Assembly: GCF_009914755.1 (NCBI RefSeq)
Contig: NC_060936.1
DNA length: 64,000 bases
From: the human T2T-CHM13v2.0 reference genome, Homo sapiens
Direction: 5' to 3' (one strand)
Part shown: in pieces, positions 20,715 through 28,405 of the stretch
Position numbering within the stretch: the first letter of the stretch is position 1
Layout: each line of letters opens with the position of its first letter
Notes under the pieces: generated by a model
The model's database searches: none
Seen by the model: only the letters and a program-made list of their open reading frames with translations
What the model was told of the DNA's origin: nothing
Translations under genes and position numbers: made by a program

Positions 20715-21260
20715 TGTCAACCTAAATAATGAGCTCTCTAAGAAATATGTTTATTTGCAAATAGAGCAACGCCTTGTGAATATGTGTGCCATGGTAAACT
20801 CTGTGCGTATTCAGGGAGGTAAAGGAAGACAAAGATTTTTTATGTTTTTTTAAAATTTTTTATTTTTAGAGACAAGGTCTCACTATGTTGCCCCAGCTGG
20901 CCTCGACTTCCTAGGCTCAAGTAATCCTCCCATGTCAGCCTTCTTAGTAGCTGGAATTACAGGCATGTGCCACTGCTGATAAAGGTTTTTAAAGGAAAAA
21001 ATGAGGAATACATAATCATTTTGAAATAATTATCCCTGGCTACAGAGACCAATAACAAGGGTGACACCAGTTCAAGGTTGGACAAGCAGTTGCTGTGCAG
21101 ATGTCCTTGCAGAAGTATTTTTTTTTGTGTGAGGTTGCAATGGCCTTTGTGCAAGGTTGTAGTTTTTGTAGTCTTTCATGATAGTTTTTACTATCAGGCA
21201 TCCTAGCCAGGAGAACCCTCATTTCGTGGCCTTCCCTGGTTCTGTTTGTAAAGGTTTTTT
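20715..21260 (-). mobile_element. ERV1 (MER4-group, MER84/MER72-like) solo LTR, main part
   Basis: Begins tgtcaacctaaat and includes tattcagggaggtaaaggaagacaaag and gatgtccttgcagaagta. Breaks off in a T tract at ~21255. TSD copy tagt at 20711-20714. Confidence 0.8.
20841..20977 (-). mobile_element. FLAM (Alu monomer) inserted in the ERV1 LTR
   Basis: Monomeric Alu. TSD gacaaagattttt (20828-20840) / gataaaggttttt (20978-20990), followed by AA. Confidence 0.85.
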
Positions 21261-21672
21261 AAATTTGTTTTTTTACTTTGAGCATTTTTTATTAATGTAT
21301 GGTTATTCATAACACAGCACGGTAAATAGAGATTTATGCTTTAAATGTTTAAACCTATATGCAATCTTTATATGTTTCCATATTCAGCCTTTATATACAT
21401 TTGGCAAGACTTTGCAAAAGCTGTCATTAGATAAGGATATTGAGTGCACAGGTTGCTGTTAATTCCAGTGGAAACAAAGTCTCTTAACTCATTTTTTTCT
21501 ACTTTGCTGATTTTCCAAACAATTGCATCTTTTTAAATTTCAAAATTATAATTTTGTTGACATTCAGAAATATTGACAATGCATGTAAAGGTATGCACAA
21601 TGCATAGAATATATTACAGCATGGAATGAAACTGCATATTCGTCTGCATTAATCTAATTATGCATATATATA
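21255..21672 (-). other. Non-L1 3' segment (putative 3' transduction) with AATAAA and poly(A) remnant
   Basis: On - strand it follows the L1 A7 tail. AATAAA (tttatt 21288-21293) lies 13 nt before an A-rich tract (21255-21274) that abuts the broken LTR. Confidence 0.75.
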
Positions 21673-21884
21673 TTTTTTTATTATACTTTAAGTTTTAGGG
21701 TACATGTGCACAATGTGCAGGTTTGTTACATATGTATACATGTGCCATGTTGGTGTGCTGCACCCATTAACTCGTCATTTAACATTAGGTTTATCTCCTA
21801 ATGCTATCCCTCCCCACTCCCCCAACCCCACAATAGGCCCCGGTGTGTGATGTTCCCCTTCTTGTGTCCATGTGTTCTCATTGC

Positions 21885-24800
21885 TCAATTCCCATCTATG
21901 AGTGAGAATATGTGGTGTTTGTTTTTTTGTCCCTGAGATGGTTTGCTGAGAATGATGGTTTCCAGCTTCATCCATGTCCCTACAAAGGACATGAACTCAT
22001 CCTTTTTTATGGCTGCATAGGATTCCATGGTGTATATGTGCCACATTTTCTTAATCCAGTCTATCATTGTTGGACATTAGGCTAGGTTCCAAGTCTTTGC
22101 TATTGTGAATAGTGCCACAATAAACATATGTGTGCATGTGTCTTTATAGCAGCATGATTTATAGTCCTTTGGGTATATACCCAGTAATGGGATGGCTGGG
22201 TCAAATGGTATTTCTAGTTCTAGATCCCTGAGGAATCACCACACTGACTTCCACAATGGTTGAACTAGTTTACAGTCCCACCAACAGTGTAAAAGTGTTC
22301 CTATTTCTCCACATCCTCTCTAGCACCTGTTGTTTCCTGACTTTTTAATGATCACAATTCTTTATTTTATTTTATTTTATTTTTTAATGATCACAATTCT
22401 AGCTGGTGTGAGATGGTATCTCATTGTGGTTTTGATTTACATTTCTCTGATGGCCAGTGATGATGAGCATTTTTTCATGTGTCTTTTGGCTGCATAAATG
22501 TCTTCTTTTGGGAAGTGTCTGTTCATGTCCTTTGCCCACTTTTGATGGGGTTGTTTGTTTTTTTCTTGTAAATTTTGTTTGAGTTCATTGTAGATTCTGG
22601 ATATTAGCCCTTTGTCAGATGAGTAGATTGCAAAAATTTTCTCCCATTCTATAGGTTGCCTGTTCACTCTGATGGTAGTTTCTTTTGCTGTGCAGAAGCT
22701 GTTTAGTTTAATTAGATCCCATTTGTCAATTTTGGCTTTTGTTGCCATTGCTTTTGGTGTTTCAGACATGAAATCCTTGCCCATGCCTATGTCCTGAATG
22801 GTATTGCCTAGGTTTTCTTCCAGGGTTTTTATGGTTTTAGGTCTAACATGTAAGTCTTCAATCCATCTTGAATTAATTTTTGTATAAGGTTTAAGAAAGG
22901 GATCCAGTTTCAGCTTTCTACATATGGCTAGCCAGTTTTCCCAGCACCATTTATTAAATAGGGAATCCTTTCCCCATTGCTTGTTTTTGTCAGGTTTGTC
23001 AGAGATCAGATAGTTGTAGATATGCGGTATTATTTCTGAGGGCTCTGTTCTGTTCCATTGATCTATATCTCTGTTTTGGTTACTGTAGCCTTGTAGTATA
23101 GTTTGAAGTCAGGTAGTGTGATGCCTCCAGCTTTGTTCTTTTGGCTTAGGATTGACTTGGCGATGCGGGCTCTTTTTTGATTCCATATAAACTTTAGTTT
23201 TTTCCAATTCTGTGAAGAAAGTCATTGGTAGCTTGATGGGGATGGCATTGAATCTATAAATTACCTTGGGCAGTATGGCCATTTTCACAATATTGATTCT
23301 TCCTATCCATGAGCATGGAATGTTCTTCCATTTGTTTGTATCCTCTTTTATTTCATTGAGCAGTGTTTTGTAGTTCTCCTTGAAGAGGTCCTTCACATCC
23401 CTTGTAAGTTGGATTCCTATGTATTTTATTCTCTTTGAAGCAATTGTGAATGGGAGTTCACTCATGATTTGGCTCTCTGTCTGTTATTGGTGTATAAGAA
23501 TGCTTGTGATTTTTGCACATTGATTTTGTATCCTGAGACTTTGCTGAAGTTGCCTATCAGCTTAAGGAGATTTTGGGGTGAGACAGTGGGGTTTTCTAGA
23601 TATACAATCATGTCATCTGCAAGCAGGGACAATTTGACTTCCTCTTTTCCTAATTGAATACCCTTTATTTCCTTCTCCTGCCTAATTGCCCTGGCCAGAA
23701 CTTCCAACACTATGTTGAATAGGAGTGGTGAGAGAGGGCATCCCTGTCTTGTGCCAGTTTTCAAAGGGAACACTTCCAGTTTTTGTCCATTCAGTATGAT
23801 ATTGGCTGTGGTTTTGTCATAGATAGCTCTTATTATTTTGAAATATGTCCCATCAATACCTAATTTAGTGAGAGTTTTTAGCATGAAGTGTTGTTGAATT
23901 TTGTCAAAGGCCTTTTCTGCATCTATTGAGACAATTGTATGGTTTTTGTCATTGGTTCTGTTTATATGCTGGATTACATTTATTGATTTGCATGTGTTGA
24001 ACCAGCCTTGCATCCCAGGGATGAAGCCCACTTGATCATGGTGGATAAGCTTTTTGATGTGCTGCTGGATTCGTTTTGCCAGTATGTTATTGAGGATTTT
24101 TGCATCGATGTTCATCAAGGATATTGGTCTAAAATTCTCTTTTTTGTGTGTCTCTGCCAGGCTTTGTTATCAGGATGATGCTGGCCTCATAAAATGAGTT
24201 AGGGAGAATTCCCTCTCTTTCTATTGATTGGAATAGTTTCAGAAGGAATGGTACCAGTTCTTCCTTGTACCTCTGGTAGAATTTGGCTGTGAGTCCATCT
24301 GGTCCTGGACTCTTTTTGGTTGGTAAGCTATTAATTATTGCCTCAATTTCAGAGCCTATTATTGGTCTATTCAGAGATTCAACTTCTTCCTGGTTTAGTC
24401 TTGGGAGGGTGTATGTGTCCAGGAATTTATCCATTTCTTCTAGATTTTCTAGTTTGTTTGCATAGAGGTGTTTATAGTATTCTCTGATGGTAGTTTGTAT
24501 TTCTGTGGGATTGGTGGTGATATCCCCTTTATCATTTTTTATTGCATCTATTTGATTCTTCTCTCTTTTCTTCTTTATTAGTCTTGCTAGTGGTCTATCA
24601 ATTTTGTTGATCTTTTCAAAAACCAGCTGCTGGATTCATTGATTTTTTGAAGGGTTTTTTGTTTCTCCATTTCCTTCAGTTCTGCTCTGATCTTAGTTAT
24701 TTCTTGCCTTCTGCTAGCTTTTGAATGTGTTTGCTCTTGCTTCTCTAGTTCTTTTAATTGTGATGTTAGGGTGTCAATTTTAGATCTTTCCTGCTTTCTC

Positions 24801-27356: not shown

Positions 27357-27623
27357 ATGGCGGGTGCCCCTCCCCCAGCTTCACTGCTGCCTTGTAGTTT
27401 GATCTCAGACTGCTGTGCTAGCAATGAGCGAGGCTCCATGGGCGTAGGACCCTCTGAGCCAGGCGCGGGATATAATCTCCTGGTGTGCTGTTTGCTAAGA
27501 CCATTGCAAAAGCACAGTATTAGGGTGAGAGTGACCCGAATTTCCAGTTGCTGTCTGTCACCCCTTTTTTTGACTTGGAAAGGGAATTCCCTGACTCCTT
27601 GGCTGTTTTGCAGATCCACTTAA
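27357..27623 (+). CDS. ORF0: L1 antisense ORF0, open (88 aa), reads across the L1 5' junction; expression unknown
   Basis: MAGAPPPASLLPCSLISDCCASNERGSMGVGPSEPG... matches primate L1 ORF0. ATG context gcaATGG; TAA at 27621-27623 lies outside the L1. Confidence 0.6.
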   Translation: MAGAPPPASLLPCSLISDCCASNERGSMGVGPSEPGAGYNLLVCCLLRPLQKHSIRVRVTRISSCCLSPLFLTWKGNSLTPWLFCRST

Positions 27624-28268
27624 ACCCCTGTCTTCCTGCAGGGCATAACTTCACAAATACGTGTGGCGCAGACACAGAGTCCTAGAACATGTTTTGGGGA
27701 ATTGAAAATAGTTCCTTAAGACTGAGGTGTTCAGTGAGGAGGAAAGAAGGGCAAGGGATAAAACTTCATAGAAAATATCCACACTTGCCGTCTTTATTTT
27801 CTTTGGTTCAGTGCCTTAGTGAGTCAGGCTTTTGGACTGTAAACTTTGAATGGAAAGATCTAAGGCTGGGCATGCTTAAGTTTCAGACAAATCATCTGTC
27901 TTTGCTCCTTATGGTTCACACCTGGCATCTGTCAGCAGGGCTGCCTCCTTGGGATGCTGACTGGTGGTTACAAAAGAGAAGCCCCACAGCCTTTCATGAA
28001 ACAACTATATATCCCTGTATCATAGATCATAGAGAACCAAAATGTGTGGTTTAGGAAATGTCAAGCATGTTCAGGAATCTTAGACTTCATTCATTTGCCA
28101 TTAGTTGACATTAGATTGGTATTTCTTTGCCCACTATTGGCTCCTTGAAAACTGAATCCTAACTCTTAGAGCAGTGCCTGCACAGTCTTTCCATAAGGAT
28201 GAATTAATATGGGTGATGCAGCCACAAATTAGGCCTTTCAAATTTTTCAGCTGGTTTTTCCTCCAGAG
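27602..28268 (-). other. Apparently unique ~670-nt segment between the MST exon and the L1 (putative transduced non-coding exon(s))
   Basis: Lies inside the split LTR, so it is foreign to this locus. No L1 homology and no ORF in the track on -. Confidence 0.65.
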
Positions 28269-28405
28269 GGTGTCTGTAGGCTGTACAGGAAGCATGGCGC
28301 TAGCATCTGCTCAGCTTCTGGCGAGGCCTCAGGGAGCTTACAGTCATGGTGGAAGGTGAAGGCAGGAGCCAGGGTATCACATGGTGATAGAGGGAGCAAA
28401 AGAGC
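28269..28405 (-). mobile_element. MSTA/MSTB LTR fragment spanning approximately TSS to splice donor
   Basis: On -: gctcttttgctccctctatcaccatgtg...gtaagctccctgaggcctcgccagaagctgagcagatgctagcgccatgcttcctgtacagcctacagacacc. U3/TATA and the sequence after the GTGAG donor are absent. Confidence 0.85.

What the first reader, a model, noticed from the sequence alone, without database searches (positions are those of the whole stretch)
21255..28405. Composite retro-insertion: MST-LTR-initiated spliced leader + L1PA4 + 3' tail with poly(A)
Seen on -, 5'->3': (1) a TT|AAAA-type target (28414-28419); (2) a 137-nt MST piece; (3) ~670 nt of unique DNA; (4) the L1 from ~nt 190 to its short A tail; (5) ~400 nt of non-L1 DNA with AATAAA; (6) an A-rich tail. 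All parts are co-oriented and sit inside a split LTR, and the L1 itself has no TSD. Known: MaLR (MST/THE1) LTRs act as promoters with an internal splice donor, and L1 can carry 5' and 3' transductions. Inference (preferred): an L1 lacking its own promoter start was transcribed from an upstream MST LTR as a spliced lncRNA-L1 chimera, read through its poly(A) site, and was retroposed whole, giving a double transduction. Alternative: a ~1.2-kb processed copy of an MST-driven lncRNA inserted first and the L1 landed in it later with target deletion. The outer TSD is T-rich and cannot be resolved by eye. I cannot say whether this locus has been described before.
Basis: partly seen in the sequence, partly recalled or inferred. 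Interest (0 to 1): 0.9.

Follow-up and report, generated by a model that had tools for sequence, protein, structure and literature searches.

The report
Old lncRNA retrocopy, later hit by L1
This stretch is an ancient intron-less copy of a spliced, LTR-started non-coding RNA from chromosome 7, into which a much younger L1 element later inserted, so it is an ordinary two-step nesting and not a single exotic event.

Summary
The non-L1 DNA on both sides of the L1 maps colinearly to four blocks spread over 374 kb of chr7 (+ strand, 15.146-15.520 Mb). The chr7 blocks have AG/GT splice sites at their edges, so this is a processed retrocopy. The source has no L1: the two pieces that flank the L1 on chr12 lie in one chr7 exon, separated by 486 bp of single-copy DNA. 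The retrocopy differs from its parent by K2P 0.19. The L1 differs from other genomic copies by only 0.04-0.07, so it is several-fold younger. The L1 lacks its first ~205 nt and has no TSD. Its A tail abuts what is a TTT/AAAA site in the parent sequence. The L1 therefore entered the retrocopy later, and about 486 bp of target was lost at or after insertion. The outer flanks are contiguous in 9 paralogous copies of an old repeat, which confirms one outer insertion. The first 136 nt run from the expected start site of a MaLR (MST-like) LTR to its internal splice donor. This is ordinary biology and of low interest.

The parts
28406..28457 (-). 5' part of the old host repeat (LTR-like, starts TG...), upstream flank of the whole insert
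   Evidence: Matches 12 paralogous copies at 82-89%. In 11 of them the match is colinear with the downstream flank 21275-20978.
28412..28420 (-). TTTAAAAGA, the 5' copy of the probable target-site duplication, lying in the host repeat's own A-rich stretch
   Evidence: The shared word with the 3' side is only 7 nt (TTTAAAA), and 861 of 2000 shuffles reach that length. The TSD is therefore not resolvable.
28270..28405 (-). Retrocopy exon 1: a piece of a MaLR (MST-like) LTR, from about 30 nt downstream of the family's TTTAAAAG box to the family's GTGAGCC donor position
   Evidence: One search gives 2105 candidates and 81-87% identity. One search examined 11 copies: a TATA-like box lies upstream of the start, and GT (4 of 11) or AT (5 of 11) follows the end point directly. 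A candidate source LTR lies at chr7:15132378-15132512 (+) at 71% identity.
28180..28269 (-). Retrocopy exon A = chr7:15146053-15146142
   Evidence: 83.3% identity over 90 nt. In chr7 it is preceded by ...atag and followed by gtttat.
28098..28179 (-). Piece B, presumed exon, source not found
   Evidence: Only a self match in the genome. No match in chr7:15146101-15246100 or in the flanks of the mapped exons.
27801..28097 (-). Retrocopy exon C = chr7:15318040-15318328
   Evidence: 79-81% identity over 289-295 nt. In chr7 it is preceded by ...ggtag and followed by gtgagc.
27690..27800 (-). Piece D, presumed exon, source not found
   Evidence: Only a self match. No match in the chr7 DNA examined.
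27601..27689 (-). 5' part of the retrocopy's last exon = chr7:15519578-15519666
   Evidence: 83.1% identity over 89 nt. chr7 has ...tctctag directly before it.
21677..27600 (-). Younger L1 (L1PA-type), lacking its first ~205 nt, with broken ORFs, a short A tail and no TSD
22342..22400 (.). 39-nt tandem duplication inside the L1 3' region. It explains the ~41-nt length excess over other copies.
21422..21676 (-). 3' part of the retrocopy's last exon = chr7:15520153-15520406
   Evidence: 82-86% identity. In chr7 it begins at AAAACATG, preceded by TTT.
21276..21421 (-). End of the retrocopy's last exon, with AATAAA at 21288-21293; no chr7 counterpart found
   Evidence: In chr7, homology stops at a truncated antisense Alu.
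21264..21274 (-). Remnant of the retrocopy's poly(A) tail (AAAAAAACAAA)
   Evidence: It lies 13 nt downstream of AATAAA.
21255..21263 (-). TTTAAAAAA, the 3' copy of the probable TSD and the start of the downstream host repeat
20978..21254 (-). Downstream part of the host repeat. It continues at 20840-20715 after an Alu-like insert.
   Evidence: 705 first-look candidates, 40 scored at 77-83% identity. Colinearity shown.

Best explanation
The structure arose from two separate L1-driven insertions, tens of millions of years apart.

Step 1 (old). A spliced, polyadenylated, non-coding RNA was transcribed on the + strand of chr7. It started at the transcription start of a MaLR (MST-like) LTR and left that LTR at its internal splice donor. 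It ran through at least three mapped exons plus two presumed exons over at least 374 kb. It was reverse-transcribed by L1 machinery into the A-rich stretch of an older LTR-like repeat on chr12. The result was a processed retrocopy with AATAAA, an A tail and a short A-rich TSD. Its original length was about 1.7 kb.

Step 2 (young). An L1PA element was inserted by endonuclease-dependent target-primed reverse transcription at a TTT/AAAA site inside the retrocopy's last exon. The upstream end was resolved about 486 bp further up. That stretch of target was therefore lost instead of being duplicated (an L1 insertion-mediated deletion), and the L1 ended about 205 nt short of full length with no TSD.

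Shown: the exon mapping, the splice sites, the missing 486 bp, the age gap and the contiguity of the outer flanks.
Inferred: that the 486-bp loss happened at the moment of L1 insertion and not later, and that neither element has a function today.

The confidence of 0.55 is for this full statement, including loss at insertion. The two-step order in any of its three forms (this one plus the first two rivals) is about 0.9.
For: - Four colinear, same-strand chr7 blocks match the non-L1 DNA at 79-86% identity: 15146053-142, 15318040-328, 15519578-666 and 15520153-406.
- In chr7 the blocks are bounded by AG and GT dinucleotides exactly at the chr12 junctions.
- Within the chr7 loci held, the L1 part of the query had no match at E<=1e-3.
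- The chr7 DNA between the two L1-flanking pieces is 486 bp. It is single-copy and has no convincing match in the window, only one 60-nt A-rich hit about 14 kb away.
- K2P for the retrocopy against its parent is 0.192 over 712 nt, or 0.176 without CpG. K2P for the L1 against 6 other copies is 0.043-0.074, or 0.035-0.056 without CpG.
- At the L1 3' junction, the chr7 sequence reads ...gtattt|AAAACATG where chr12 reads ...ataataaa|AAAATATA.
- The L1 has no TSD.
- The L1 starts 205 nt inside full-length copies.
- The outer flanks abut in 9 paralogous copies of the host repeat.
- The LTR piece starts about 30 nt after the family's TTTAAAAG box and ends where family copies read GTGAGCC or ATGAGCC.
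- MaLR LTRs are described as supplying a promoter, TSS and splice donor for first exons of lncRNAs (PMC5538554, passages read).
- L1 insertion-mediated deletions are an established class (PMC1920257, passages and reference list read; it cites Han 2005 and Gilbert 2002).
Against: - The true pre-L1 allele on chr12 is not available. The 486-bp loss is inferred from the parent gene, and its timing is not fixed.
- Two internal pieces (82 and 111 nt) and the last 146 nt have no chr7 match in the DNA I could examine.
- The candidate source LTR is only 71% identical. That is no better than unrelated copies of the family (78.6-87%).
- The outer TSD is not statistically distinguishable from A-rich background.
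- The age argument assumes roughly equal neutral rates on the chr7 and chr12 copies.
- The L1 comparison used only the 40 best-scored of about 6,900 candidates per search.
Confidence: 0.55

Rival explanations
1. The order of events is the same two steps, but the L1 first inserted normally (full length, with a TSD). A later, unrelated deletion of about 700 bp then removed the L1's first ~205 nt, the 5' TSD copy and the adjacent ~486 bp of retrocopy.
For: The present structure is exactly what such a deletion would leave. By my rough estimate from recalled frequencies, which no call tested, the combined prior for a full-length insertion plus a later deletion is of the same order as that for an insertion-mediated deletion with truncation at ~205 nt.
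Against: It needs an extra independent event with one end inside a 205-nt interval. There is no positive evidence for it. The 1-nt overlap at the 5' junction (C) fits either reading.
Confidence: 0.3
2. The order of events is the same two steps, but the L1 entered by the endonuclease-independent route, patching a pre-existing double-strand break that had already lost about 486 bp.
For: No TSD and a target deletion are features listed for such non-classical insertions (PMC1920257).
Against: The L1 has an intact 3' end with an A run. That run abuts a TTT/AAAA site, as judged from the parent sequence. This is the signature of endonuclease-dependent priming. The non-classical insertions described in PMC1920257 are characterised as lacking these hallmarks.
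Confidence: 0.05
3. One reading: one retroposition of an RNA that began in an upstream MST LTR, was spliced onto an L1 lacking its promoter start, and read through the L1 poly(A) site, giving a double (5' and 3') transduction.
For: All parts are co-oriented, the L1 has no TSD of its own, and the outer flanks define a single insert site.
Against: The only source locus in the genome (chr7) has 486 bp of unique exon where the L1 should be, and no L1. Both L1-flanking pieces come from one exon, with no GT..AG at the break. The L1 is 3-4 times less diverged than the flanking pieces. The L1 3' junction sits on an endonuclease-type site in the target DNA. No further copies exist: only self and chr7 matched.
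Confidence: 0.02
4. A DNA-level duplication or ancestral unique sequence: the non-L1 DNA is not a retrocopy.
For: Two internal pieces and the last 146 nt have no detected paralogue.
Against: The mapped pieces lie 172 kb and 201 kb apart on chr7 but are adjacent on chr12. The joins fall exactly at AG/GT sites. The unit ends in AATAAA plus an A run and interrupts an otherwise contiguous repeat.
Confidence: 0.01

Closest known systems
Processed pseudogene / retrocopy made in trans by L1
   Same: It has intron-less joins at the parent's splice sites, AATAAA plus an A tail, and an insertion at an A-rich TT/AAAA-type site inside another repeat. The parent lies on another chromosome.
   Different: The parent is a non-coding, LTR-initiated transcript: chr7 exon C has 6-8 stops in every frame and the last exon 14-19 (exon A, 90 nt, has one open frame). 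Such parents are outside the usual protein-based retrocopy catalogues. A phrase search for lncRNA retrocopies found only 2 papers with incidental mentions.
L1 insertion-mediated deletion (Gilbert 2002; Symer 2002; Han 2005, as cited in PMC1920257)
   Same: It is an L1 with a normal 3' end and A run at an endonuclease-type site. It has no TSD, and target DNA (~486 bp) is missing at the 5' junction.
   Different: The pre-insertion state is inferred from the retrocopy's parent gene, not from an orthologous empty site. A later deletion cannot be excluded. I could not read Han 2005 (not held).
LTR-initiated transcripts from MaLR LTRs (Franke et al. 2017, PMC5538554)
   Same: The first exon runs from the LTR's start site to a splice donor near the LTR's 3' end, and is spliced to downstream non-LTR exons of a lncRNA.
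   Different: Here the transcript is known only from its fossil cDNA copy. Present-day expression of the chr7 locus was not examined, and the source LTR is only a candidate.
L1 5'/3' transduction
   Same: Non-L1 DNA lies co-oriented on both sides of an L1, within one outer insertion site.
   Different: The defining feature, flanks contiguous with an L1 at the source, was tested and not met. The ages of the L1 and its flanks also differ.

Membership tests
Processed retrocopy | Parent exons joined without introns, with the joins at the parent's splice sites | tested here: met
   Three mapped joins have AG and/or GT in chr7 exactly at the block edges. The blocks lie 172 and 201 kb apart on chr7.
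Processed retrocopy | Poly(A) signal and A tail at the 3' end | tested here: met
   AATAAA at 21293-21288, followed 13 nt later by AAAAAAACAAA.
Processed retrocopy | Target-site duplication | tested here: inconclusive
   Only TTTAAAA (7 nt) is shared, and 861 of 2000 shuffles reach that length. The flanks do overlap by 5-16 nt on 8 paralogous repeat copies.
Processed retrocopy | All parts traceable to the parent | tested here: inconclusive
   Of about 1,206 non-L1 nt, 729 map to chr7. Pieces of 82, 111 and 146 nt, and the LTR exon, are not securely mapped. About 273 kb of the parent's introns could not be fetched.
L1 5'+3' transduction (single event) | Source locus carries an L1 between the two transduced segments | tested here: not met
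   chr7 has 486 bp of single-copy non-L1 DNA between them.
L1 5'+3' transduction (single event) | L1 and flanks are of one age | tested here: not met
   K2P is 0.19 for the flanks against the parent and 0.043-0.074 for the L1 against other copies.
L1 insertion-mediated deletion | L1 without TSD | tested here: met
   Longest shared word is 5 nt, reached by 1459 of 2000 shuffles.
L1 insertion-mediated deletion | Endonuclease-type site and A tail at the 3' junction | tested here: met
   The parent sequence reads TTT|AAAA at the junction, and the L1 ends in an A run.
L1 insertion-mediated deletion | Target DNA present in the pre-insertion allele is absent after insertion | tested here: inconclusive
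   486 bp present in the parent exon is absent on chr12. The orthologous pre-insertion allele cannot be examined with these tools, so the timing is open.
MaLR (MST-like) LTR-initiated transcript | 5' end at the LTR's start site downstream of its TATA-like box | tested here: met
   In 8 of the 11 family copies shown, a TTTAAAA-type box (TTAAAAG in L042) lies about 28-35 nt upstream of the position matching the retrocopy's first base; L047, L049 and L051 carry only degenerate versions (TAAAGG, TTCAAAGG, TTTAAAGG). The window's own upstream DNA belongs to the host repeat, not to this LTR.
MaLR (MST-like) LTR-initiated transcript | First exon ends at the LTR's internal splice donor | tested here: met
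   The piece ends where 4 of 11 copies read GT and 5 of 11 read AT, followed by GAGCC or a close variant (GGGCC in L048, AAGCC in L051, GAACC in L043). The donor is described for MaLR LTRs in PMC5538554.
MaLR (MST-like) LTR-initiated transcript | Identified source LTR upstream of exon A, same strand | tested here: inconclusive
   A candidate lies at chr7:15132378-15132512 (+), 13.5 kb upstream. It is 71% identical and now reads ATGAGCC at the donor. Only 40 kb upstream was examined.
Subfamily labels MST and L1PA4 | Diagnostic positions against curated consensus sequences | not testable with these tools
   No repeat-consensus library is available. The L1's divergence fits a young L1PA subfamily: L1Hs to L1PA5 are dated 3.1-20.4 Myr in PMC5237266.

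The most novel reading that the evidence does not exclude
The retrocopy is a roughly 45-80-Myr-old 'fossil cDNA' of a germline-expressed, MaLR-LTR-driven lncRNA. That lncRNA spanned at least 374 kb of chr7, or about 388 kb if the candidate LTR is its start. The retrocopy preserves exons (pieces B and D, and the 3' end) that the parent locus may since have lost. It would then be a rare direct record of the exon structure of an ancient LTR-initiated non-coding transcript, in a class (lncRNA retrocopies) that protein-based catalogues miss.
Probability: 0.5. Interest if true: 0.35.

Novelty: new member of a known kind. Interest (0 to 1): 0.2.

Why it matters
The finding shows that an apparent double-transduction L1 chimera is a routine nesting of two retropositions. 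This removes a high-scored false lead. Two modest points remain. First, it is a clean example of a processed copy of an LTR-initiated lncRNA, which records that a MaLR promoter and splice donor were in use in the germline or early embryo tens of millions of years ago. Second, it is a probable L1-associated loss of about 486 bp of target. Nothing suggests a present function. RefSeq lists no gene or element over 21255-28405 (hub table).

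Tried and rejected
- Single-event transduction was rejected (see rivals).
- An intron explanation for the 486-bp gap was rejected. The chr7 break points read AGCC|TCTG and ATTT|AAAA, with no GT..AG.
- A later TE insertion into chr7 as the cause of the gap was rejected. 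The 486 bp is single-copy.
- The search for exons B and D and the 3' 146 nt found nothing.
  - Whole-genome searches gave only self matches.
  - Sensitive local BLAST found nothing convincing in chr7:15106001-15246100 plus about 3-kb loci around each mapped exon.
- I tried to place a neighbouring gene on chr7 with Pfam PF04116. It gave no chr7 match, so I name no neighbour or parent gene.
- Han 2005 is not held in the library.
- No paper on this locus was found. A search for LINC02450 gave 2 unrelated expression papers, of which I saw the listing only. No search can address the unannotated insert itself.
- Protein-coding potential of the parent is very unlikely. chr7 exon C has 6-8 stops in every frame and the last exon 14-19. 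Exon A (90 nt) has one open frame.

Full report
**Observation**

I read the region on the - strand. It contains, in order:
- TTTAAAAG at 28420-28413.
- A 136-nt piece of a high-copy LTR at 28405-28270. It has 2105 first-look candidates, and the 39 scored non-self hits are 81-87% identical.
- 669 nt without repeat matches, at 28269-27601.
- An L1 at 27600-21677.
- About 400 nt of non-L1 DNA at 21676-21276, with AATAAA at 21293-21288.
- An A-rich run at 21274-21264.

The L1 identity rests on several results:
- Pfam hits on the - strand: Transposase_22 at E 2.4e-59 and RVT_1 at E 1.6e-43.
- ORFs broken into many pieces.
- 90-96% identity to thousands of candidate copies.

Three full-length copies (L030-L032) share about 201-205 nt of homology upstream of the point that matches window 27600. 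This L1 therefore lacks about its first 205 nt.

**The outer insertion site**

The 52 nt upstream (28457-28406) and the DNA downstream (21275-20978, continuing at 20840-20715 after an Alu-like insert) belong to one old repeat family. That family has 705 first-look candidates for the downstream part, at 77-83% identity.

Of 18 paralogous loci examined, 11 carry both flanks on the same strand and in order. In 9 of these the flanks abut directly: 8 overlap by 5-16 nt of an A-rich stretch, and 1 has a 2-nt gap. Of the other 7 loci, 6 matched the downstream flank only at E<=1e-4, and L011 matched neither flank, only unrelated upstream DNA (28805-28750). Everything from 28405 to about 21264 is therefore inserted DNA at one site.

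The duplication itself cannot be resolved. The shared word is TTTAAAA, and 861 of 2000 shuffles of the A-rich flank do as well.

**The non-L1 DNA is a processed copy of a chr7 transcript**

Whole-genome searches of the two non-L1 segments gave only self matches and chr7 matches, all on the same strand and in order. Local alignment refined the blocks:

| Window | chr7 | Identity |
|---|---|---|
| 28269-28180 | 15146053-15146142 | 83% |
| 28097-27801 | 15318040-15318328 | 79-81% |
| 27689-27601 | 15519578-15519666 | 83% |
| 21676-21422 | 15520153-15520406 | 82-86% |

Blocks that are adjacent on chr12 lie 172 kb and 201 kb apart on chr7. In chr7 each block edge that is a join on chr12 carries a splice-site dinucleotide:
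- ...aatag|exon A|gtttat
- ...ggtag|exon C|gtgagc
- ...tctctag|last exon

chr7 exon C has 6-8 stops in every frame and the last exon 14-19, while exon A (90 nt) has one open frame. The parent is therefore non-coding.

Three stretches have no chr7 counterpart in what I could examine: 28179-28098, 27800-27690 and 21421-21276. About 273 kb of the parent's introns remained out of reach. In chr7, homology to the 3' end stops at a truncated antisense Alu.

**The LTR first exon**

I displayed 11 genomic copies of the family. In 8 of them a TTTAAAA-type box lies about 28-35 nt upstream of the position matching the retrocopy's first base (L042 reads TTAAAAG). L047, L049 and L051 carry only degenerate versions.

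At the position directly after the retrocopy's LTR piece ends, 4 of 11 copies read GT, 5 of 11 read AT, and 2 read otherwise. This is followed by GAGCC or a close variant.

The piece thus runs from the expected start site to the LTR's internal donor. Franke et al. describe this for MaLR LTRs: promoter, TSS, poly(A) site and a splice donor near the 3' end, supplying first exons of lncRNAs (PMC5538554, passages read).

The window's own DNA upstream of 28405 belongs to the host repeat, not to this LTR. The TTTAAAAG there is therefore target sequence and not a promoter carried along.

A same-strand candidate source LTR lies 13.5 kb upstream of exon A, at chr7:15132378-15132512. It is only 71% identical and now reads ATGAGCC at the donor. 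Unrelated copies score 78.6-87%, so position and orientation are its only support.

**The L1 came later**

Four results show this.
1. The source has no L1. The two pieces that flank the L1 on chr12 lie in one chr7 exon, 486 bp apart. That 486 bp is single-copy in the genome. It has no convincing match in the window, only a 60-nt A-rich hit at 7383-7325. The L1 part of the query matched nothing in the chr7 loci at E<=1e-3.
2. The break points in chr7 are not intron ends (AGCC|TCTG and ATTT|AAAA).
3. K2P between the retrocopy and its parent is 0.192 over 712 aligned nt, or 0.176 without CpG sites. K2P between this L1 and six other copies is 0.043-0.074, or 0.035-0.056 without CpG. A pairwise L1 distance is an upper bound on what this L1 has accumulated since insertion. 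About half of 0.19 is expected on the retrocopy's side. The L1 is therefore roughly 3-4 times younger. This step is an inference and assumes similar neutral rates on the two copies.
4. At the L1's 3' junction, the parent reads TTT|AAAACATG where chr12 has the L1's A run followed by AAAATATA. This is an endonuclease-type priming site in the target DNA.

The L1 has no TSD.

With substitution rates of about 1.2-2.2e-9 per site per year (recalled, not from a call), the retrocopy is roughly 45-80 Myr old. The L1's distances fit the young L1PA range: L1Hs to L1PA5 are dated 3.1-20.4 Myr in PMC5237266 (passages read). The subfamily label L1PA4 was not testable.

**Mechanism and what remains open**

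The best reading is an old retrocopy followed by a later, endonuclease-dependent L1 insertion. The upstream end of that insertion was resolved about 486 bp away, deleting target DNA instead of duplicating it. This is the known class of L1 insertion-mediated deletions (named and referenced in PMC1920257, passages read). I could not read Han 2005 itself.

A normal full-length insertion followed by an unrelated ~700-bp deletion would leave the same structure. I cannot exclude this without orthologous sequences, and I give it about 0.3. An endonuclease-independent insertion is less likely, because of the A run at a TTT/AAAA site.

The two-step order in any of its three forms is about 0.9.

**Comparison with what is known, and novelty**

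Each ingredient is textbook: a processed retrocopy, an LTR-initiated lncRNA, a nested L1, and L1-associated target loss.

The only slightly unusual aspect is that the parent is a non-coding, LTR-driven transcript. Such copies escape protein-based retrocopy catalogues. A phrase search for lncRNA retrocopies found 2 papers with incidental mentions (listing only). A search for LINC02450 found 2 unrelated papers (listing only). I found no description of this insert. Neither search can exclude one, and supplements were not consulted.

**Verdict**

The structure is ordinary, and I score interest at 0.2.

Noticed in passing
window 22342-22400: There is a perfect 20-nt direct repeat with 39-nt spacing inside the L1's 3' region. 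It is a tandem duplication that accounts for the ~41-nt length excess over other L1 copies.
   Followed up: partly
window 20841-20977: An Alu-like insert interrupts the downstream part of the host repeat. Host-repeat homology resumes at 20840-20715.
   Followed up: no
L004 2336-2537 (chr7:15520413-15520614): A truncated antisense Alu (poly-T first) sits in the parent's last exon, exactly where homology to the retrocopy stops. The parent may have lost its original 3' end there.
   Followed up: partly
L037 2463-2552 (chr7:15108463-15108552, - strand): This is a second MaLR LTR copy upstream of exon A, 80% identical to the retrocopy's LTR piece over 90 nt. It is in the opposite orientation, so it is not a candidate first exon.
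   Followed up: no
window 28406-28457, with L010-L026: The host repeat family has an internal A-rich stretch of very variable length (about 5 to more than 30 nt among copies). That makes it a natural L1-endonuclease target.
   Followed up: no
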